Of a DNA stretch of 64,000 nt, positions 7,902 through 49,224 are shown one piece after another. Position numbers and translations under genes: made by a program. The stretch's first letter is position 1; each line of letters begins with the position of its first letter. The notes beneath the pieces were generated by a model that saw only the letters and a program-made list of their open reading frames with translations, did no database searches and was not told the origin of the DNA. The stretch is from Eledone cirrhosa (taxonomy: Eukaryota): contig OZ024749.1 in NCBI GenBank assembly GCA_964016885.1, positions 37,324,001-37,388,000 on the forward strand, given 5' to 3'.

Positions 7902-8226
7902 ATGATTCCAGTTCCTCAGTGAAATAACAACCCAACCAGGAACTGGGCATATCAGAGTATTGACAAAGTTAAACACCTCAACAACATGTGTACGCGTCTC
8001 TACCACACTAATTCGGACTGCCTGAAGAGGTGACAGCCAAAGATGGCTGTCACCGAAATATATATAGCAGTAATAAACGAAGCCAAATTTTAAACATTTG
8101 ACTTATTTATTTTATTTTATTTTATTTTATTTTACATTACTCCGGAGTAACCAAACCAATCTGCGCACTTCGTCGAGTGCTCCAATCTGCATACTTAGGT
8201 GTTGGTATACAACCAACATATACTCT
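7902..8226 (+). mobile_element. Hammerhead-bearing non-autonomous element, family C (Penelope pLTR/retrozyme-like)
   Basis: Lies between TA tracts and contains HHR plus AATAAA. Homologous to 26300-26630 and 58845-58960; a tail fragment is at 3740-3763. Confidence 0.7.
8017..8071 (+). ncRNA. Type I hammerhead ribozyme with minimal stem III (family C)
   Basis: ACUGC-CUGAAGA-GGUGACAGCCA(aaga)UGGCUGUCACC-GAAA-UAUAUA-UA-GCAGU. Stem I is 5 bp, the core is complete, stem II is a perfect 11 bp closed by G-C, and stem III is self-complementary. AUA cleavage triplet; AATAAA follows immediately. Confidence 0.9.
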
Positions 8227-26299: not shown

Positions 26300-26630
26300 A
26301 AATTTTGAGTATGTGTTGGTTGTTTACCGACGCCTCAGTATGCAGGCTAGAGCACTCGACGAAGTACGCAGGTTGGTTTGTTTACTCCCGAGTAATGTAA
26401 ATCATTATGATTCCAGTTCCTCGTAGGACTAACAACACACACAGGAGCTGGACATATCGGTGAATTGACAGAGTGGAACACATTTCAACACCATGTTTAC
26501 CTGTTCTTTCTACATTAATTCGTACTGCCTGAAGAGGTCACAGCCAATAATGGCTGTCACTGAAATACATATAGCAGACAATTTATAATAAACGAAGCCA
26601 AATTTAACATGTTTAACTTACTTATTTTAT
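26300..26630 (+). mobile_element. Family C element with its 3' tail inverted in front
   Basis: 26307-26401 is the reverse complement of the 8131-8225 tail; 26405-26630 matches 7902-8110. Confidence 0.7.
26525..26577 (+). ncRNA. Type I hammerhead ribozyme (family C, second copy)
   Basis: CUGC-CUGAAGA-GGUCACAGCCA(auaa)UGGCUGUCACU-GAAA-UACAUA-UA-GCAG; homologous to 8017-8071. Confidence 0.8.
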
Positions 26631-26634
26631 ATGT

Positions 26635-26828
26635 ATATTTAATATAGAAATGGCTTTTACAGGAATAGAACTGTTTCTTTCGGAGGAAATCATCAGGAAA
26701 GCCCTGACGATTTCCTCCGAATGAAACAGTTCTAGTCCTGTAGAAACCATTTTATATATTAAATATTTATACTCTGCTATGTATTGAGTACCTTACTTAC
26801 TGTGGTTACACCCGATTGAACCCTGGAT

Positions 26829-26941: not shown

Positions 26942-26946
<5 letters not shown>

Positions 26947-27069
26947 CACCATACCGAGAACAAATGTTTCACCTTACGCGGTCTCGGTATGGTGAACTAA
27001 TTGTTGTGGAACTATTTCTACCAAACTCGTCCCATGGGGTGAGTGCGCTACTACTACGGGTATAACCCT

Positions 27070-27071: not shown

Positions 27072-27106
<35 letters not shown>

Positions 27107-27386
27107 TATAAATTATGTCCATAGAATCATTTGATAAGATATATATTCCATTTCCTCTCCCAATTAGCAAAATCAACCACACAAAAAACCAAATAAACCA
27201 GGCTATAAGATTAAAAGGCACCTATGAAGAAATAATAGATAAATAAACGACAGCTATCTATTCGCGATCAACAGCTATAGAATTTCAATAGCACGTGGAA
27301 ACCGATTAAATACATCGTCAACCATACACAATTAGGTATAAAATTAAATTTAGAAGAAAAAATGCATATACACATACCAGGATTAC

Positions 27387-27468
27387 GTTTCTACCCTTTA
27401 GGGTTTCGTTCGCTTTCGGAAATATCCTATCAAGGATAAATTCTCGAGCTTCGAACTCATCAGGAAAC
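27387..27468 (-). ncRNA. Canonical type I hammerhead ribozyme with extended stem II
   Basis: Minus strand reads GUUUC-CUGAUGA-GUUCG...UAUCCU(ugau)AGGAUA...CGAAC-GAAA-CCC(uaaa)GGG-UA-GAAAC. All three stems pair; G10.1-C11.1; GUA cleavage site. Confidence 0.9.
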
Positions 27469-27813
27469 AAACTCACTTGGACAAAGATTTTTCTTAAATG
27501 ATCCCCGCCAAAAACGAATTCAAAACGGCTAAGAATTGTGACGTGGCAGTGGTCAAGTCAGAAAGAATGTGATTGGTGCCTTACGGCTAGTGGGTTGGTT
27601 GTCAGAAACGCGGCCTAATATTGCCTAAATTGCATCTCAACCTTATGGGAGATTATCAAATATAAAGATTTACATATACACAAACTAGACAAAGTCATAG
27701 CAAAAACATATCTGACTTTGTCTAGTTTGTGTATATGTATATATGTGTATGTGTATATATATATACGTATATATATGTATATATATATGTGTATATATAT
27801 ATATATATATGTG

Positions 27814-27844
<31 letters not shown>

Positions 27845-28345
27845 GTGTATATATATATGTGTATATATATATGTATATATATATGTATATATATGTATAT
27901 GTATATATATATATGTGTATATGTATATATATATATGTGTATATGTATATATATATATGTGTATATGTATATATATATATGTGTATATGTATATATATAT
28001 ATGTGTATAAGTATATATATATATATGTGTATATGTATATATATATATGTGTATAAGTATATATATATATATGTGTATAAGTATATATATATATATGTGT
28101 ATAAGTATATATATATATATATGTGTATAAGTATATATATATGTGTATATGTATATATATATATATATGTGTATATGTATATATATATATATATATGTGT
28201 ATATGTATATATATATATATGTGTATATGTATATATATATATATGTGTATATGTATATATATATGTGTATATGTGTATATGTATATATATATATATGTGT
28301 ATATGTATATATATATGTGTATATGTATATGTGTATATGTATATG

Positions 28346-28378
<33 letters not shown>

Positions 28379-28443
28379 GTATATGTATATATATATGTGT
28401 ATGTGTGTATATGTATATATGTGTATATGTATATGTGTATATG

Positions 28444-28479
<36 letters not shown>

Positions 28480-28908
28480 TGTATATGTGTATATGTATAT
28501 ATATATATGTATATATGTATATATATATATATATATGAATATGTCATTTATTTTGTCTGACATGTTTAGCTTGACTTGTTTTTTTGGCTTAGGTGGTTTA
28601 TGGCTTCTTGACCGCCTTCTCAGTTTCTATGACCTTTATAACCTATATTTGTTGGTCTGGTCTTTTAGCCTGTGGGGCGCTTGCCAGCATGAATCGGAAT
28701 TTGCGTTACGTTTCGCTATTTCTACCCGCAGAAATGCGATTCTCGCTGAATTTATATTTGTATATATATATATAGGAGGGTTATATTCGTATATATATAT
28801 ATATATACATATATATATGGTCGGACGAAACGGCTGTCGGCAATAAACTTGTTATAATGTCATAATAGTTCCTTTGTTCTTTTTCACTTATATATATATA
28901 TATTATTT

Positions 28909-39253: not shown

Positions 39254-39804
39254 TGTATATAATATATGTATATTTAAATATTGCGTATTTATGTATGTGA
39301 GCAATATAGAGAGTGTCAAATAGAGCTACGGAGAGAGGCAGATAGTAACAGAGAGAGGCGAGCGTGGAAACGATCGTGGATACAGAGAGAGAGAGAGGGG
39401 GGGGGGAGAAGGAGTTTGTGATAAAAATGGCCTATAAAAGCAAACAATAGGAGAAACGAAGGATATCGTCCATATTGCTTCCTCTTCCGTTGTTGCCGTT
39501 GAAGTGAAGAAGAAGATATCATATAATAGCAAAATGATAAACAACCGGATGCTAAAAGACTAATTCAATAGCAGACGTCCTCGCTCTCCTACAATAAACT
39601 ACAATATCTTACTTTATTTATGCAGTCAGTATTCGCTATTTAGTCTTCGTTCGTTTACGCCTTTCATTTTACAACCATTTCCTTTTAATCTGTCGTCGAC
39701 ACACAAAAAGCAGCCATTTTGTTTTTCTTATTTTTCCTCTGCTTCGTCTTCTTCGGCGAAATCATGTCGAAATCAAAAAGTAATATCGTATCGAGATATG
39801 ATTT

Positions 39805-39848
<44 letters not shown>

Positions 39849-40118
39849 TTCAGTTGTTTTATATTTTTAACCATTTTTAGATCCGTGTTTGGCTTGAAGC
39901 AATGTAGTTTTGGCTATGTTGAAACATCCCTATCTCTCCATCCCCTCCACCTCTCCTCTCACAGGAACTGTGCAGAGCGGTGCAGTACACACAGTACACA
40001 CGAGGAAGATAATGTCACAATAGTAGGGTTGTACATGTGTGAAAATATCTATTGCATTGTGCAACAAAATTTCATTTACACACGTACAGACATTACATGT
40101 ACACATATTCATATAAAC

Positions 40119-40121
<3 letters not shown>

Positions 40122-40150
<29 letters not shown>

Positions 40151-40478
40151 TTATTTTACGTCCGCTTTTCCCTGCTTGCAAGGGTGGGACGGAAACTGAT
40201 TCTGGCTTGATTTCTACAGCTGGATGCCCTGCCTAACACCAACCTCATTTTACAGTGAGTGCTGGGTGCTTTATTGCCGTGGCACCTCCACGACCAGTTT
40301 ACAGTGGAATGATATGGACCCCAGTCCCTATCATCTCATTTCTAAAGCTGAGTAAACTGGGAGCAATGTGAAATAAAGTGTCTTGCTCAAGGAAACAACA
40401 CATCACCCGGTCTGAGAATTGAACTCACAACCTTTCGATTGCATGGCCAATGCTCTAACCACTAAGCCATGTGCCTCC
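40122..40478 (-). mobile_element. SINE family H (CORE-like head, (ATG)n tail)
   Basis: Minus strand carries TGGCTTAGTGG and GAGTTCAATTC boxes, ccttgagcaagacactt, ggtgttaggcagggcatccagctgtagaaa and an (ATG)n tail. Other copies: 45062-45421, 4956-5190 (truncated), 60419-60468 (+ tail). Confidence 0.85.
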
Positions 40479-40890
40479 ATATATATATATATATATATTA
40501 ATTGGTGGAAAGACGTAGCGACATCATCGACCCCAGAAACATAAAAGGCAGGGTTGACCCCAACAGGCTTTGAACCAAGAACGTAAAGAGCAAGAACAAT
40601 CTATCTGTAGAGATTTCGTCCGATGCTGTAATGGTTCTCCAATTTACCCCAGAAAAGACGATTTCAGATTTTGTACTATAAAATCCTCATTAAAATAACA
40701 CACGTTATTATAAATATTTGAATTCATAAGCCACCTGAGACCATATTAAAGCTACTTAGAAATGATGAAACAACACAAAGACTGCATCTTTACTGTATAG
40801 TTCCACGACAATCTGTTTACTAGGAAAATTAGTCTAAACATTTGAATAAACAAACCCATTTTTGTTACAGCCATCATACTTCACACTTTC

Positions 40891-40946
<56 letters not shown>

Positions 40947-41286
40947 TCATATATATATATAATATATATACGTACACACATATACCGAGTCCATTTCCTA
41001 CCGAATCAATTAAATATTTATGTCTGTATATATAACTATAATAATATAACATCAACTGTACTTACAGCGCAGTGATGCAGCGCCTGGATGAATTATTGAC
41101 CTAAAACATATATAATACTGTTTGTTGACATAGCAACTCTAGTAGACAGTTGTTCTACACAGAATATGATTAGTGTAATAACGGACACCCTGTATAGTTT
41201 ATTCTAAGCCAGTCATATATAGTTCATTGATAAAATATCAATATAGAATTACATTTTACTACAGTAAACTTTCAAAACCTGTCAGT

Positions 41287-41882
41287 TTAACCTTTTTGCT
41301 TCCAAGCCGTCTGACACCACTCCTGTTTCTGCGATAACAAAACTGGCTATTTAAATATGTTATCGTTATCTAAAAACCTTTCATCATATCTTTATACAAG
41401 AACCTTTGTTAAGTTATGTTCTTAACAACAGCTATATAATGTGAAAGTGAAATTGCGAAATTCTTCCCAATTTTTAAAGATTATTTTCATGATTAATGGA
41501 AACACATTTATTGCATTTAATAATATTTTCTTCCTTAGGAATACTATAGTATTTCTGTGTTGGTTCTATAACTAAGTATCTATTGGTAGTAATGTTCTCT
41601 AAAATGTCGTCCGCCGCTTTGATCCCGGCCGACAGGATGGAGAATACCTCGCCCTAGAGGATGGCGAGGGAGACACGTTGAAACCGTCATCTCACCCAGC
41701 AGGCAGACAACTTCGTTGAGCAGGGATGTGGTCCGGGGGACTAGAACGCCAAAAAGCTCTACTGCAACAGGCTCTACCACAAACATATCCGAGAGCGGCA
41801 GATACATGGACAGTTTGCCTTCTTCGGCCTGGTCGGCAATTGTCAATGTATTTCATTAGGAATATAGAAACGAAAGAGTTAA
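41287..41882. mobile_element. TTAA-flanked MITE relic (piggyBac-like) interrupted by the CRE fragment
   Basis: TTAA-cctttttgcttcc ... gaaacgaaagag-TTAA. Related relics start at 17739, ~31580 and 41879. Confidence 0.5.
41580..41846 (-). pseudogene. CRE-like non-LTR retrotransposon, restriction-like endonuclease C-terminus (duplicate at 46529-46795)
   Basis: AEEGKLSMY.PL...EPVAVELFG....TTSLLNEV, then frameshifted FQRVSLAIL*GEVFSIL; resembles the CRE-type PVAVET.G...QR.S.AIQRGN motif. Confidence 0.7.
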
Positions 41883-42361
41883 CTACTTGATATCAACCCG
41901 CTTAAAGCCACCCACAGTCTCAATACCACAACACTGCTCACTTTAAAGTGTTTATTCTTATATTAAAACCTTTATTCATATTTTCATATAAGAACCTTTG
42001 ATAAGTTATGCTTCAATCTAATCTAATCTAATCTGGCCGAGTTTACACTCGCAAATAAGAAGAACCAGGGCCGCCCGTAGGTGTACTTCATTGTATTTGA
42101 TGTATTTGATATTTGTTTCGGTTGTTGAATACAATCAGGATTGTTGCTTCTCCTGAAGGTCAATAGTTCTCTTCTAACTCGAGCGGGAGCACCTTTCCAT
42201 TGCTTCAAACACCTGCTTAATAACGAGAAAGCTATATTACTAAATTTAGCCAAGCAGTTTCTGTCATTAGAAAAGGTTAAAAACATATGAACTATAAAGA
42301 TCTCTGGCCCAGTTTCGGCAGATTTTTTAAATATGTCATGGTTGAGATCTTTAGACATGTG

Positions 42362-42532
42362 TACTCATACCGTAGTTCTGAGGGAGATTCAGAATGATAC
42401 TGTTAAATTAGATATAAAACTCATATTTTCCAGGAGAGTGGACTGGAGGAAGGTGAAATAAAATGTCTTGCTCAAAGACACATCACACACCCTTACAATC
42501 GTCAGCCGAACACTCTAACAACTAAGCCATAC
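42362..42532 (-). mobile_element. Old CORE-like SINE with a third tail type (duplicate at 47308-47478)
   Basis: gtgaaataaaatgtcttgctcaaagacac...ctctaacaactaagcca. Confidence 0.6.
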
Positions 42533-42542
42533 GTTGTCACCT

Positions 42543-42615
<73 letters not shown>

Positions 42616-42758
42616 TGTAGGGGTGTAAGCAGTAGGATCTGTAGTAGTATATGCAACAATATTACATATAGTAGTAGCAGTGGTGGAAGCAGTAGTAGTA
42701 ATGCCAGTGGTGGTGCTGGTCTTGGTCGTGGAAGTACTACTACAGTGGTGTTGGTGGA

Positions 42759-42789
<31 letters not shown>

Positions 42790-42931
42790 ATAATAATAAT
42801 AATAATAATAGTAAGAAGAAGAAGAAGAATAGTAGTAGTGGTGGTGTTGGTATTGGTCGTGGAAGTCCTACTACAGTGGTGTTAGTGGAAGAAGTACTAC
42901 TGCTACTACTGATACTAGTAGTAATAGTAGT

Positions 42932-43145
42932 AGAATTTTCTCAACCAGTAGAGCAACAGTACAGTTTAAATATCCATTTAGAGTGGACATAATTTCAATG
43001 ACACTCACCATAACTACTACTACTACTATTACTACCACTACTACTAGTAGTAGTAGTAGTAGTAGTAGAATTTTCTGAACCAGTAGAGCACCAGTAGTTT
43101 AAATATCCATTTAGAGTGGACATAATTTCAATGACACTCACCATA

Positions 43146-43191
<46 letters not shown>

Positions 43192-43317
43192 TTACTACTA
43201 CTACTACCACTACCACTACCACTACTACTACTACTAGTAGAATTTTATGAACCAGTAGAGCACCAGTAGTTTAAATATCCATTTAGAGTGGACAGAATTT
43301 CAATGACATTCACCATA

Positions 43318-43396
<79 letters not shown>

Positions 43397-43493
43397 GTAG
43401 TAGTAGTAGTAGTAGTAGTAGAATTTTATGAACCAGTAGAGCACCAGTAGTTTAAATATCCATTTAGAGTGGACAGAATTTCAATGACATTCA
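42932..43493. repeat. Four ~80-bp units spaced by (CTA)n(TAG)n
   Basis: agaatttt..gaaccagtagagcaccagtagtttaaatatccatttagagtggaca.aatttcaatgaca.tca repeated. Confidence 0.9.
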
Positions 43494-43982
43494 TTTACTT
43501 TAACGGAAACAAAGAAAGAAGGAATATTTAGTTATTTATTTATTTATCTATATATTTATTTATTCATTTACTTACTTATTACTCCGAACAGAAAAAAGTA
43601 ATTTATTCTTGTAACCTAACAAAGCTAGCAGTGGGAGGAGAGGGAGGAGGTAGCTAAATATAGCGGAAGCATTGTAAATATTTGCATGAGATGGCATGTT
43701 ACTGTGTTGACATGTGCAGTTTCAGTGTGCAATAACTGCAGTCTTACTGCTGCCTCACACACTGCAGTCTCACACATTACAGGCAGAGACTTTATTTATG
43801 TGCAGATATTGATTATATACTCTTTAGCATTATGTATGTATTTTAACACTAAAGAAATTACACCGTTTAAAAAGTGGCATATTACCTACATTGGATGGCT
43901 GCGTGCCTGGTTTCTTTCTGTGTACGTACGTACGTGGTGCATGTATGTATATATGTTTACATATGCATATATATATATATAT

Positions 43983-44059
<77 letters not shown>

Positions 44060-44064
44060 TATAC

Positions 44065-44104
<40 letters not shown>

Positions 44105-44317: not shown

Positions 44318-44724
44318 GGGGGGGGGAGAAGGAGTTTGTGATAAAAATGGCCTATAAAAGCAAACAATAGGAGAAACGAAGGATATCGTCCATATTGCTT
44401 CCTCTTCCGTTGTTGCCGTTGAAGTGAAGAAGAAGATATCATATAATAGCAAAATGATAAACAACCGGATGCTAAAAGACTAATTCAATAGCAGACGTCC
44501 TCGCTCTCCTACAATAAACTACAATATCTTACTTTATTTATGCAGTCAGTATTCGCTATTTAGTCTTCGTTCGTTTACGCCTTTCATTTTACAACCATTT
44601 CCTTTTAATCTGTCGTCGACACACAAAAAGCAGCCATTTTGTTTTTCTTATTTTTCCTCTGCTTCGTCTTCTTCGGCGAAATCATGTCGAAATCAAAAAG
44701 TAATATCGTATCGAGATATGATTT

Positions 44725-44788
<64 letters not shown>

Positions 44789-45058
44789 TTCAGTTGTTTT
44801 ATATTTTTAACCATTTTTAGATCCGTGTTTGGCTTGAAGCAATGTAGTTTTGGCTATGTTGAAACATCCCTATCTCTCCATCCCCTCCACCTCTCCTCTC
44901 ACAGGAACTGTGCAGAGCGGTGCAGTACACACAGTACACACGAGGAAGATAATGTCACAATAGTAGGGTTGTACATGTGTGAAAATATCTATTGCATTGT
45001 GCAACAAAATTTCATTTACACACGTACAGACATTACATGTACACATATTCATATAAAC

Positions 45059-45094
<36 letters not shown>

Positions 45095-45833
45095 TATTTT
45101 ACGTCCGCTTTTCCCTGCTTGCAAGGGTGGGACGGGAACTGATTCTGGCTTGATTTCTACAGCTGGATGCCCTGCCTAACACCAACCTCATTTTACAGTG
45201 AGTGCTGGGTGCTTTATTGCCGTGGCACCTCCACGACCAGTTTACAGTGGAATGATATGGACCCCAGTCCCTATCATCTCATTTCTAAAGCTGAGTAAAC
45301 TGGGAGCAATGTGAAATAAAGTGTCTTGCTCAAGGAAACAACACATCACCCGGTCTGAGAATTGAACTCACAACCTTTCGATTGCATGGCCAATGCTCTA
45401 ACCACTAAGCCATGTGCCTCCATATATATATATATATATATTAATTGGTGGAAAGACGTAGCGACATCATCGACCCCAGAAACATAAAAGGCAGGGTTGA
45501 CCCCAACAGGCTTTGAACCAAGAACGTAAAGAGCAAGAACAATCTATCTGTAGAGATTTCGTCCGATGCTGTAATGGTTCTCCAATTTACCCCAGAAAAG
45601 ACGATTTCAGATTTTGTACTATAAAATCCTCATTAAAATAACACACGTTATTATAAATATTTGAATTCATAAGCCACCTGAGACCATATTAAAGCTACTT
45701 AGAAATGATGAAACAACACAAAGACTGCATCTTTACTGTATAGTTCCACGACAATCTGTTTACTAGGAAAATTAGTCTAAACATTTGAATAAACAAACCC
45801 ATTTTTGTTACAGCCATCATACTTCACACTTTC

Positions 45834-45895
<62 letters not shown>

Positions 45896-47488
45896 TCATA
45901 TATATATATAATATATATACGTACACACATATACCGAGTCCATTTCCTACCGAATCAATTAAATATTTATGTCTGTATATATAACTATAATAATATAACA
46001 TCAACTGTACTTACAGCGCAGTGATGCAGCGCCTGGATGAATTATTGACCTAAAACATATATAATACTGTTTGTTGACATAGCAACTCTAGTAGACAGTT
46101 GTTCTACACAGAATATGAATAGTGTAATAACGGACACCCTGTATAGTTTATTCTAAGCCAGTCATATATAGTTCATTGATAAAATATCAATATAGAATTA
46201 CATTTTACTACAGTAAACTTTCAAAACCTGTCAGTTTAACCTTTTTGCTTCCAAGCCGTCTGACACCACTCCTGTTTCTGCGATAACAAAACTGGCTATT
46301 TAAATATGTTATCGTTATCTAAAAACCTTTCATCATATCTTTATACAAGAACCTTTGTTAAGTTATGTTCTTAACAACAGCTATATAATGTGAAAGTGAA
46401 ATTGCGAAATTCTTCCCAATTTTTAAAGATTATTTTCATGATTAATGGAAACACATTTATTGCATTTAATAATATTTTCTTCCTTAGGAATACTATAGTA
46501 TTTCTGTGTTGGTTCTATAACTAAGTATCTATTGGTAGTAATGTTCTCTAAAATGTCCGCCCCTTTGATCCCGGCCGACAGGATGGAGAATACCTCGCCC
46601 TAGAGGATGGCGAGGGAGACACGTTGAAACCGTCATCTCACCCAGCAGGCAGACAACTTCGTTGAGCAGGGATGTGGTCCGGGGGACTAGAACGCCAAAA
46701 AGCTCTACTGCAACAGGCTCTACCACAAACATATCCGAGAGCGGCAGATACATGGACAGTTTGCCTTCTTCGGCCTGGTCGGCAATTGTCAATGTATTTC
46801 ATTAGGAATATAGAAACGAAAGAGTTAACTACTTGATATCAACCCGCTTAAAGCCACCCACAGTCTCAATACCACAACACTGCTCACTTTAAAGTGTTTA
46901 TTCTTATATTAAAACCTTTATTCATATTTTCATATAAGAACCTTTGATAAGTTATGCTTCAATCTAATCTAATCTAATCTGGCCGAGTTTACACTCGCAA
47001 ATAAGAAGAACCAGGGCCGCCCGTAGGTGTACTTCATTGTATTTGATGTATTTGATATTTGTTTCGGTTGTTGAATACAATCAGGATTGTTGCTTCTCCT
47101 GAAGGTCAATAGTTCTCTTCTAACTCGAGCGGGAGCACCTTTCCATTGCTTCAAACACCTGCTTAATAACGAGAAAGCTATATTACTAAATTTAGCCAAG
47201 CAGTTTCTGTCATTAGAAAAGGTTAAAAACATATGAACTATAAAGATCTCTGGCCCAGTTTCGGCAGATTTTTTAAATATGTCATGGTTGAGATCTTTAG
47301 ACATGTGTACTCATACCGTAGTTCTGAGGGAGATTCAGAATGATACTGTTAAATTAGATATAAAACTCATATTTTCCAGGAGAGTGGACTGGAGGAAGGT
47401 GAAATAAAATGTCTTGCTCAAAGACACATCACACACCCTTACAATCGTCAGCCGAACACTCTAACAACTAAGCCATACGTTGTCACCT

Positions 47489-47540
<52 letters not shown>

Positions 47541-47683
47541 TGTAGGGGTGTAAGCAGTAGGATCTGTAGTAGTATATGCAACAATATTACATATAGTAGT
47601 AGCAGTGGTGGAAGCAGTAGTAGTAATGCCAGTGGTGGTGCTGGTCTTGGTCGTGGAAGTACTACTACAGTGGTGTTGGTGGA

Positions 47684-47768
<85 letters not shown>

Positions 47769-47907
47769 ATAATAATAATAATAATAGTAAGAAGAAGAAG
47801 AAGAATAGTAGTAGTGGTGGTGTTGGTATTGGTCGTGGAAGTCCTACTACAGTGGTGTTAGTGGAAGAAGTACTACTGCTACTACTGATACTAGTAGTAA
47901 TAGTAGT

Positions 47908-48121
47908 AGAATTTTCTCAACCAGTAGAGCAACAGTACAGTTTAAATATCCATTTAGAGTGGACATAATTTCAATGACACTCACCATAACTACTACTACT
48001 ACTATTACTACCACTACTACTAGTAGTAGTAGTAGTAGTAGTAGAATTTTCTGAACCAGTAGAGCACCAGTAGTTTAAATATCCATTTAGAGTGGACATA
48101 ATTTCAATGACACTCACCATA

Positions 48122-48180
<59 letters not shown>

Positions 48181-48305
48181 CACTACCACTACCACTACTA
48201 CTACCACTACTACTACTACTACTAGTAGAATTTTATGAACCAGTAGAGCACCAGTAGTTTAAATATCCATTTAGAGTGGACAGAATTTCAATGACATTCA
48301 CCATA

Positions 48306-48397
<92 letters not shown>

Positions 48398-48474
48398 AAT
48401 TTTATGAACCAGTAGAGCACCAGTAGTTTAAATATCCATTTAGAGTGGACAGAATTTCAATGACATTCACCATA

Positions 48475-48523
<49 letters not shown>

Positions 48524-48623
48524 GTAGTAGTAGTAGTAGTAGTAGTAGTAGAATTTTATGAACCAGTAGAGCACCAGTAGTTTAAATATGCATTTAGAGT
48601 GGACAGAATTTCAATGACATTCA
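47908..48623. repeat. Five-unit version of the same array
   Basis: Same unit with one more copy. Confidence 0.9.
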
Positions 48624-49108
48624 TTTACTTTAACGGAAACAAAGAAAGAAGGAATATTTAGTTATTTATTTATTTATCTATATATTTATTTATTCATTTA
48701 CTTACTTATTACTCCGAACAGAAAAAAGTAATTTATTCTTGTAACCTAACAAAGCTAGCAGTGGGAGGAGAGGGAGGAGGTAGCTAAATATAGCGGAAGC
48801 ATTGTAAATATTTGCATGAGATGGCATGTTACTGTGTTGACATGTGCAGTTTCAGTGTGCAATAACTGCAGTCTTACTGCTGCCTCACACACTGCAGTCT
48901 CACACATTACAGGCAGAGACTTTATTTATGTGCAGATATTGATTATATACTCTTTAGCATTATGTATGTATTTTAACACTAAAGAAATTACACCGTTTAA
49001 AAAGTGGCATATTACCTACATTGGATGGCTGCGTGCCTGGTTTCTTTCTGTGTACGTACGTACGTGGTGCATGTATGTATATATGTTTACATATGCATAT
49101 ATATATAT

Positions 49109-49199
<91 letters not shown>

Positions 49200-49224
49200 T
49201 ATACATATATATACATATATATAT

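What the first reader, a model, noticed from the sequence alone, without database searches (positions are those of the whole stretch)
27387..27468. Textbook-complete hammerhead, the best candidate for activity as a monomer
All core bases are canonical, with G10.1-C11.1, a stable CCC/GGG stem III and a GUA site. No second copy is visible in this window, and it lies in a ~600-bp unique island between TA tracts.
Basis: partly seen in the sequence, partly recalled or inferred. Interest (0 to 1): 0.7.

Follow-up and report, generated by a model that had tools for sequence, protein, structure and literature searches.

The report
Retrozyme hammerhead evolving toward solo cutting
This is a complete self-cutting RNA motif inside one copy of a roughly 690-base non-coding jumping repeat with hundreds of copies; many copies begin exactly at the predicted cut, which likely records cutting in living cells, and this lineage has lengthened the one helix that is predicted to let the motif cut without a partner.

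Summary
The type I hammerhead (minus strand, 27468-27387) is real. It has a canonical core and a GUA site, it is the predicted minimum-energy fold, and its stems covary across subfamilies. The island is not unique. It is one 5'-truncated, two-armed insertion of a protein-free ~687-bp repeat family with at least 366 copies and Penelope-type marks: two fixed outer ends, partial tandems, inverted arms and (TA)n targets. It is best read as a non-LTR retrozyme. Of 366 copies, 27 begin at the predicted cut, against 4 hits at a control site 7-9 bases upstream; in an unselected sample 7 of 72 did (0.18 expected). This likely records self-cleavage in vivo. Within this family stem III grew stepwise (8, 9, 10 nt) to the window's closed hairpin, while sister subfamilies keep a palindromic stem. 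Cut-site starts are about 3-fold commoner in this family than in the sisters (7.4% vs 2.2%). Against: no RNA data, whole-unit folds often disrupt stem I, no partner Penelope element was found, and nothing shows this locus is transcribed. The scan noted cut-site starts before, in other families of this genome.

The parts
27106..27699 (-). Main (sense) arm of the insertion: unit positions 79-687 of a ~687-bp non-coding repeat; 5'-truncated; fixed 3' end ...GGACATAATTTATAG abutting (TA)n
   Evidence: 93% to the L007 unit; 15 substitutions against the majority of 29 other loci, none within the 82-nt ribozyme
27708..27753 (+). Inverted second arm: unit positions 76-121, with its outer end at the family's second fixed end ('tail', unit ~118)
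   Evidence: 13 of 19 two-armed family-A insertions pair one end at ~687 with one at ~118
27387..27468 (-). Type I hammerhead ribozyme motif
27464..27468 (-). Stem I 5' strand GUUUC
   Evidence: one pair changed on both sides and three on one side across subfamilies
27457..27463 (-). Catalytic core C3-A9, CUGAUGA
   Evidence: sequence; identical in 12 of the 13 subfamily rows at C3 and in all at the other positions
27408..27456 (-). Extended stem II: 5-bp proximal helix GUUCG/CGAAC, internal loop, distal helix and UGAU loop
   Evidence: proximal helix 3 of 5 pairs and distal helix 2 of 7 pairs with changes on both sides
27393..27404 (-). Stem III ACCC-UAAA-GGGU, the most derived and most stable variant in the superfamily
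27391..27392 (-). Predicted cleavage site (GUA^G); hotspot of 5' junctions in other copies
27387..27391 (-). Stem I 3' strand GAAAC: first bases of copies that start at the cut
27598..27609 (-). Upstream segment predicted to pair with both stem I strands in the whole-unit fold (possible off state); carries two of this copy's private substitutions
   Evidence: model-dependent across copies
27072..27105 (.). (TA)n target tract at the 3' end
27754..28544 (.). TA/TG-rich microsatellite beyond the inverted arm

Best explanation
The motif is a type I hammerhead inside a protein-free ~687-base repeat with hundreds of dispersed copies; the repeat's RNA likely cuts itself at GUA^G in germ cells and is likely copied into (TA)n tracts by a borrowed Penelope-type reverse transcriptase/endonuclease. 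SHOWN: the motif, its covariation, the family, two fixed outer ends (unit ~687 and ~118), 5' truncation, partial tandems, inverted arms, and a sharp excess of copies that start at G1.1. INFERRED: tandem source loci are transcribed and the ribozymes release unit-length RNA (cut to cut). The enzyme starts at one of two internal sites, about 300 and 418 nt downstream of the cut, primed by nicked (TA)n DNA. On a cut, linear RNA it runs off at G1.1 and gives the ~300-bp copies that start at the cut. On ligated circular or uncut RNA it passes the site and gives 1.x-2.4-unit tandems. The window's lineage turned a palindromic, dimer-type stem III into a closed 4-bp hairpin, which is predicted to allow cutting by one ribozyme alone. 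The window copy itself is most likely an inert truncated daughter.
For: Fold and core. Covariation on 13 subfamily rows: 91% of cells paired, 6 of 20 pairs with changes on both sides, 0 of 500 shuffles reach the covariation score, slid controls 22-47% paired. Junctions: 29 hits for 'foreign + 19-mer', 27 of them true junctions at different loci, out of 366. The base before G1.1 is not the element's A in 25 of 27, against a fraction of 0.22 expected without a hotspot (P 5e-15). The control 7-9 nt upstream gave 4 hits. Unselected sample: 7 of 72 end at that base, 0.18 expected (P 7e-10). The peak repeats in sister subfamilies with a different downstream sequence: 24 events in 1084 matches, 20 of 24 non-A. 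Junction copies fall in all downstream haplotype groups, so they are not one amplified master. Two fixed ends in 13 of 19 (family A) and 13 of 18 (sisters) two-armed insertions. Tandem copies at one locus often share variants (L007 14 of 21 vs 3.0 expected; L030 9 of 11 vs 0.9). Tree built with stem III removed: 8-nt forms basal, 9-nt next, 10-nt nested, several starred nodes, 9 label changes vs 35.6 shuffled.
Against: No cleavage or expression data. Most copies run through an intact site (65 of 72). Whole-unit folds disrupt stem I in the window copy (P 0.0) and in the L007 unit folded as a circle; across 9 other copies P(stem I) ranges 0.02-0.94. A control at +59 gave 17 hits: 7 were insertions of another element, about 8 were TA-microhomology junctions and 2 were local changes, so other local hotspots exist. 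The 7.4% vs 2.2% contrast (Fisher P 2e-5; P 1e-3 if the sister denominator is cut to an assumed 800 for arrays) is confounded by array inflation and lineage, and peak-to-control counts differ less clearly (27:4 vs 24:8; the 8 were not fetched). Sisters with the palindromic stem also show the peak, so a closed stem III is not required. The 10-nt group needs 6 changes on the tree and the 9-nt group 7, so the ladder is not clean. Some tandems share no variants (L002 0 of 5, L020 0 of 3). No autonomous partner was found. In the one reconstituted Penelope-type system, ribozyme cleavage was dispensable for insertion and no RNA-seq reads began or ended at the cut (PMC11167929).
Confidence: 0.8

Rival explanations
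1. The junction peak comes from the reverse transcriptase stalling at the folded three-way junction, not from RNA cleavage; the ribozyme is structural or dead in vivo.
For: Junctions are somewhat denser in the 60 nt upstream of the cut, inside the ribozyme (13 events, 0.37%/nt vs 0.24%/nt overall). An earlier scan note on another genome (e1-9351082) found starts at the ribozyme's front edge instead.
Against: A stall at the base of stem III would leave A17 copied, but A precedes G1.1 in only 2 of 27 cases. The peak is one base wide, and it persists in sisters whose stem III is unstable as a hairpin.
Confidence: 0.1
2. The 687-bp unit is the pseudo-LTR stub of an autonomous Penelope-like element rather than a self-standing non-autonomous unit.
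For: It has all the PLE insertion marks (PMC8557442), and retrozymes are proposed to derive from pLTRs (bioRxiv 10.64898/2026.07.22.740005).
Against: Units join head to tail with no ORF between them (L007, 2.4 units, longest ORF 57 aa; sister arrays of 9-10 units per 10-kb stretch). In 60 unselected loci fetched with 5 kb upstream, the element's 5' end met a TA tract, unrelated DNA, an inverted arm or another unit. No match of the unit outside family arms pointed to a coding element.
Confidence: 0.07
3. This locus is a co-opted single ribozyme acting on a host transcript, as the first reader's 'unique island' implies.
For: The 82 nt match the family majority exactly while the rest of the copy has 15 substitutions in ~590 nt.
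Against: Zero changes in 82 nt is unremarkable (about 2 expected; P about 0.1, my arithmetic). The copy is one of hundreds, its end branch is of median length (0.022 vs 0.021), and no host gene link was seen.
Confidence: 0.03

Closest known systems
Metazoan non-LTR retrozymes (Cervera and de la Pena 2020, PMC7229834: matched passages and part 4 of 6 read, supplement not read; Li, Clavereau and Pollet 2026, bioRxiv 10.64898/2026.07.22.740005: parts 1-3 of 5 read, supplements closed)
   Same: Non-coding unit with one type I hammerhead per repeat; head-to-tail tandems and dispersed monomers; the 687-bp unit lies inside the reported 51-972 bp range; proposed PLE mobilisation.
   Different: Stem III has 4 bp including A15.1-U16.1 and a non-palindromic tetraloop, where those papers describe 1-2 bp; stem II is 45 nt. 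Family A is mostly dispersed 0.4-2.4-unit insertions. Expression, cleavage and circles were shown there and are untested here. Starts at the cut site are not described in the parts read.
EN+ Penelope-like elements and their pLTR hammerheads (PMC4209133, parts 1-2 of 4 read; PMC8557442, matched passages; PMC11167929, parts 1-2 of 4)
   Same: 5' truncation, partial tandem, inverted 5' arm, microsatellite targets, and two fixed internal RT start sites that define a 'tail'.
   Different: No ORF. The tail is about 118 nt (106 in sisters) rather than 30-40. The ribozyme is not the minimal dimer type. For the anole element, cleavage was dispensable in vitro and no reads ended at the cut, whereas here about 7% of copies start there.
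R2 retrotransposon 5' HDV-like ribozyme (PMC3774820, search listing and start of abstract only)
   Same: Ribozyme cleavage coincides with the 5' junction of inserted copies.
   Different: Different ribozyme class, an autonomous site-specific LINE, and the cut defines the normal 5' end; here it is an internal site used by a minority of copies.

Membership tests
Type I hammerhead ribozyme | Core CUGANGA, GAA, A15.1-U16.1 and NUH site around three helices, with stem I open-ended | tested here: met
Type I hammerhead ribozyme | Helices kept by compensatory changes | tested here: met
   6 of 20 pairs changed on both sides; the three stem III pairs counted never vary
Type I hammerhead ribozyme | Match to an Rfam hammerhead model | tested here: not met
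   the long stem II probably falls outside the models (inference)
Type I hammerhead ribozyme | Stem I / stem II tertiary contact | not tested
   Conserved GAGUUU/UAAU bulge next to stem I and an A-rich internal loop 5 bp up stem II are candidates; the contact was not modelled
Type I hammerhead ribozyme | Self-cleavage | not testable with these tools
   Indirect only: junction peak at G1.1
Non-LTR retrozyme | Non-coding unit with one type I HHR, found as head-to-tail tandems with at least two ribozymes | tested here: met
   Family level: L007 has two whole units; sister arrays. The window copy alone has one ribozyme
Non-LTR retrozyme | Expressed as linear and circular unit-length RNA | not testable with these tools
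   No RNA run was listed
Penelope-like element (autonomous) | RT plus GIY-YIG ORF | tested here: not met
   no coding sequence between units
Penelope-type insertion | 5' truncation, partial tandem, inverted 5' arm, tail, microsatellite target | tested here: met
Penelope-type insertion | End sequences shared with a named autonomous partner | tested here: inconclusive
   None among the ~197 loci held; no genome-wide partner search was made
tRNA-derived SINE | tRNA-like head | tested here: not met
   (ARAGORN on L007: 0); this would miss degenerate heads

The most novel reading that the evidence does not exclude
The genome holds both the record of in vivo hammerhead cleavage and an evolutionary series for it. 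One retrozyme lineage converted a dimer-dependent palindromic helix III step by step (CCAUGG, CCCAGGG, CCCUAGGG, CCCUAAGGG, CCCUAAAGGG) into a monomer-competent hairpin, and the share of insertions made from cut RNA rose about threefold. Junction frequency would then be a fossil read-out of ribozyme activity, and the series a natural experiment on how much self-cleavage a Penelope-dependent RNA circle tolerates.
Probability: 0.35. Interest if true: 0.7.

Novelty: new variant of a known kind. Interest (0 to 1): 0.48.

Why it matters
What hammerheads do in Penelope-type elements is stated as unclear (PMC8557442), and the only in vitro system found cleavage dispensable (PMC11167929). A one-base peak of insertion starts at the cut, repeated in two subfamily groups, is genomic evidence that these RNAs are cut in the germ line and that cut RNA is still copied. 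The graded helix III variants give a ready panel for testing the monomer/dimer control model. The single locus itself is an ordinary truncated copy.

Tried and rejected
Rfam: no hit at gathering in the window; at E<=10 only hairpin-type chance matches, almost all to the fold-back at 27660-27750. Sequencing runs: no RNA holder listed. Contigs of 4 runs of unrecorded kind from one study (X1-X4) cover the unit in short pieces and add nothing on ends or circles. No tRNA gene. The bacterial promoter scan was at chance level and is not relevant to an animal. No ORF over 57 aa in L007. Partner search among held loci by blastn and tblastx found only family members and TA-rich matches. Six ORF fragments in flanks look like Penelope RT or GIY-YIG pieces by recalled motifs, but Pfam gave 0 hits for all 6, so they are not used as evidence. 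Rejected 'one truncated master re-amplified' (different flanks, all haplotype groups). Rejected TA microhomology as the cause of the peak (TATA|GAAAC in 1 of 27). The +59 control was confounded. A test of cut-site starts by loop length within family A was not possible, because those copies lack stem III and my intact sample was biased toward the window's lineage. Literature searches showed no paper describing this family or insertion starts at a hammerhead cut; the library lacks most subscription journals, and supplements were not read.

Full report
Observation. The minus strand of 27468-27387 reads GUUUC-CUGAUGA-GUUCG...CGAAC-GAA-ACCC-UAAA-GGGU-A-GAAAC. This is a type I hammerhead with a canonical core, G10.1-C11.1, a 4-bp helix III and a GUA site; the cut is predicted between 27392 and 27391. 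The 82-mer folds this way as MFE and centroid (z -3.3), and the fold holds with 15-30-nt flanks (P(stem I) 0.93-0.94). Rfam does not detect it. Three more hammerheads in the window belong to another family.

The island is not unique. A search of the window's genome (3.0 Gb) with 27110-27725 listed 73 matches from 40 scored of 4189 candidates; the top 29 other loci are 92-94% identical. The 19-mer after the cut occurs 366 times exactly, a lower bound on copies reaching that point. Tandem loci define a 687-bp unit with the cut after position 387 and no ORF over 57 aa. Copies are 3'-anchored, 5'-truncated, often preceded by a partial copy or an inverted arm, and sit in (TA)n tracts. Of 137 family-A loci, 105 of 118 single-armed insertions end at ~687, and 13 of 19 two-armed ones pair an end at ~687 with one at ~118 (these loci were chosen by my searches, not at random). 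The window copy is two-armed: unit 79-687 at 27699-27106 and unit 76-121 inverted at 27708-27753. These are the marks described for Penelope-like elements (PMC8557442, passages read), and two fixed internal RT start sites were shown biochemically for one such element (PMC11167929, parts 1-2 read). Earlier scan notes reported the same two-end pattern for other families here; I found it independently in this one.

The structure is conserved. Sister subfamilies 70-80% identical to the unit were found by pattern and by neighbourhood. On 13 hand-picked rows, 91% of cells pair and 6 of 20 pairs change on both sides, including G10.1-C11.1 to A-U; 0 of 500 shuffles reach the covariation score, and slid registers pair at 22-47%. 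The rows are related, so this is support and not a probability.

Evidence for cleavage in vivo. I searched for the post-cut 19-mer preceded by non-element letters. There were 29 hits; 27 are true junctions at different loci and 2 are intact copies with mutations. In 25 of 27 the preceding base is not the element's own A17 (22 T, 3 C), which places the junction at G1.1; without a hotspot that fraction would be about 0.22 (P 5e-15). The matching control 7-9 nt upstream gave 4 hits. In an unselected sample (all 62 matches on C1 and the first 10 on C2), 7 of 72 end at that base against 0.18 expected from the upstream rate of 0.24% per base (P 7e-10; still 4e-4 with the local rate and five-base slack). 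Sister subfamilies, with a different sequence after the cut, give 28 hits: 3 are not junctions and 2 are one locus, leaving 24 events in 1084 matches, 20 of them non-A; many of these are fold-back junctions where microhomology blurs the base. Junction copies fall in all haplotype groups. A second control at +59 gave 17 hits, 7 from another element inserted there and about 8 from TA microhomology, so local hotspots of other origin exist; the cut-site peak does not use TA microhomology. The excess of T before G1.1 would fit a non-templated A added when the enzyme runs off the RNA end (inference). After I had found this, the scan index showed the same signal noted for other families in this genome.

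Is it a monomer ribozyme? In a tree of 74 copies, one per locus and built with helix III removed, subfamilies with CCAUGG (21 rows) and CCCAGGG (2 rows) lie on one side of a 100/100 branch. On the other side 8-nt forms branch first, 9-nt forms next, and the window's 10-nt form is nested, through several starred nodes. The root is a midpoint, so the direction between 6 and 8 is not fixed; 8 to 9 to 10 holds unless the root lies inside family A. The 9- and 10-nt labels need 7 and 6 changes, so reversions occur. Predicted hairpin energy falls along the series from +2.9 to -3.7 kcal/mol, while the self-duplex stays favourable (-11 to -18), so dimers remain possible. Cut-site starts are 7.4% in family A and 2.2% in the sisters (P 2e-5), which fits more cleavage with a closed helix III, but arrays inflate the sister count and the peak-to-control ratios (27:4, 24:8) are too small to separate. 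Published metazoan examples have 1-2-bp palindromic helix III and cut poorly as single motifs (PMC4209133, PMC7229834).

Against activity of this copy. In the 590-nt context the model pairs both stem I strands with 27598-27609 (P(stem I) 0.0; 0.54 with pairing limited to 150 nt). In nine other copies the value spans 0.02-0.94, so an off state is possible but not established. No RNA run was available, and the copy lacks the first 78 nt of the unit on the sense arm.

Mechanism. Shown: motif, covariation, family anatomy, fixed ends, junction peak. Inferred: transcription of tandem sources, self-cleavage to unit RNA, copying by a Penelope-type enzyme from two internal starts at nicked (TA)n, run-off at G1.1 on cut RNA, and read-through on circular or uncut RNA. 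Tandem copies at one locus often share variants (L007 14 of 21 vs 3.0 expected; L028 8 of 12 vs 1.6; but L002 0 of 5), which fits a circle but also a transcript from a young tandem; I put the circle at about 0.55. My odds are 0.85 that the family cleaves in vivo, 0.75 that the 82-110-mer cleaves alone in vitro, and 0.1-0.15 that this locus does anything. The partner element is unidentified.

Verdict. A real hammerhead in a new ~687-bp retrozyme family. The locus is ordinary, but the family carries genomic evidence on an open question and a testable helix III series. The animal group is not tested here; scan notes call the genome cephalopod.

Noticed in passing
window +8017-8071, +26524-26578, -58917-58862: Three type I hammerheads of another family (CUGANGA, GNCANAGCC...GGCU, GAAAUAUAUAUAGCAG) with an AU-palindromic helix III, the likely dimer type; also seen in L017, L081 and L082.
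   Followed up: no
G000:C1:92.98-93.02 Mb (L188, L189), L191, L026: A long ~657-bp-period array of a sister subfamily (about 45 units by span; 20 kb fetched) whose forward units have an A.A mismatch at the pair closing stem II, while the inverted arm in L188 has A-U. Long arrays may come from weak ribozymes.
   Followed up: partly
L120, L121, L127, L129, L132, L133, L135, L136 at unit position ~447; also L029: Several copies are interrupted at the same site by another element ending ...GACAACCACAGTTTTATATATATAG on this strand (Helitron/DINE-like by recall): a shared target site inside the retrozyme.
   Followed up: partly
L071 +1679, L094, L137; L022, L073, L083, L100, L116; L024 -3178: At least three further hammerhead families in flanking DNA (cores followed by ACACAATTTTTGTCCC..., GGTCACAGAGTGTGTGAC..., and a short-stem form).
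   Followed up: no
L004, L028, L145: The same element end (...GGACACTACCGTATATTTTGGTAGATTTATC) abuts (TA)n next to family copies at three loci; it shares GGACA...ATTTAT with this unit's 3' end. A possible lead to the partner element, or chance.
   Followed up: no
window 26640-26760 and 26946-27000: Fold-back palindromes next to the insertion, probably inverted-arm remnants of other TA-targeting elements.
   Followed up: no
window ~39600-44100 and ~44600-49200: A duplication of about 5 kb, seen as repeated tandem-repeat patterns.
   Followed up: no
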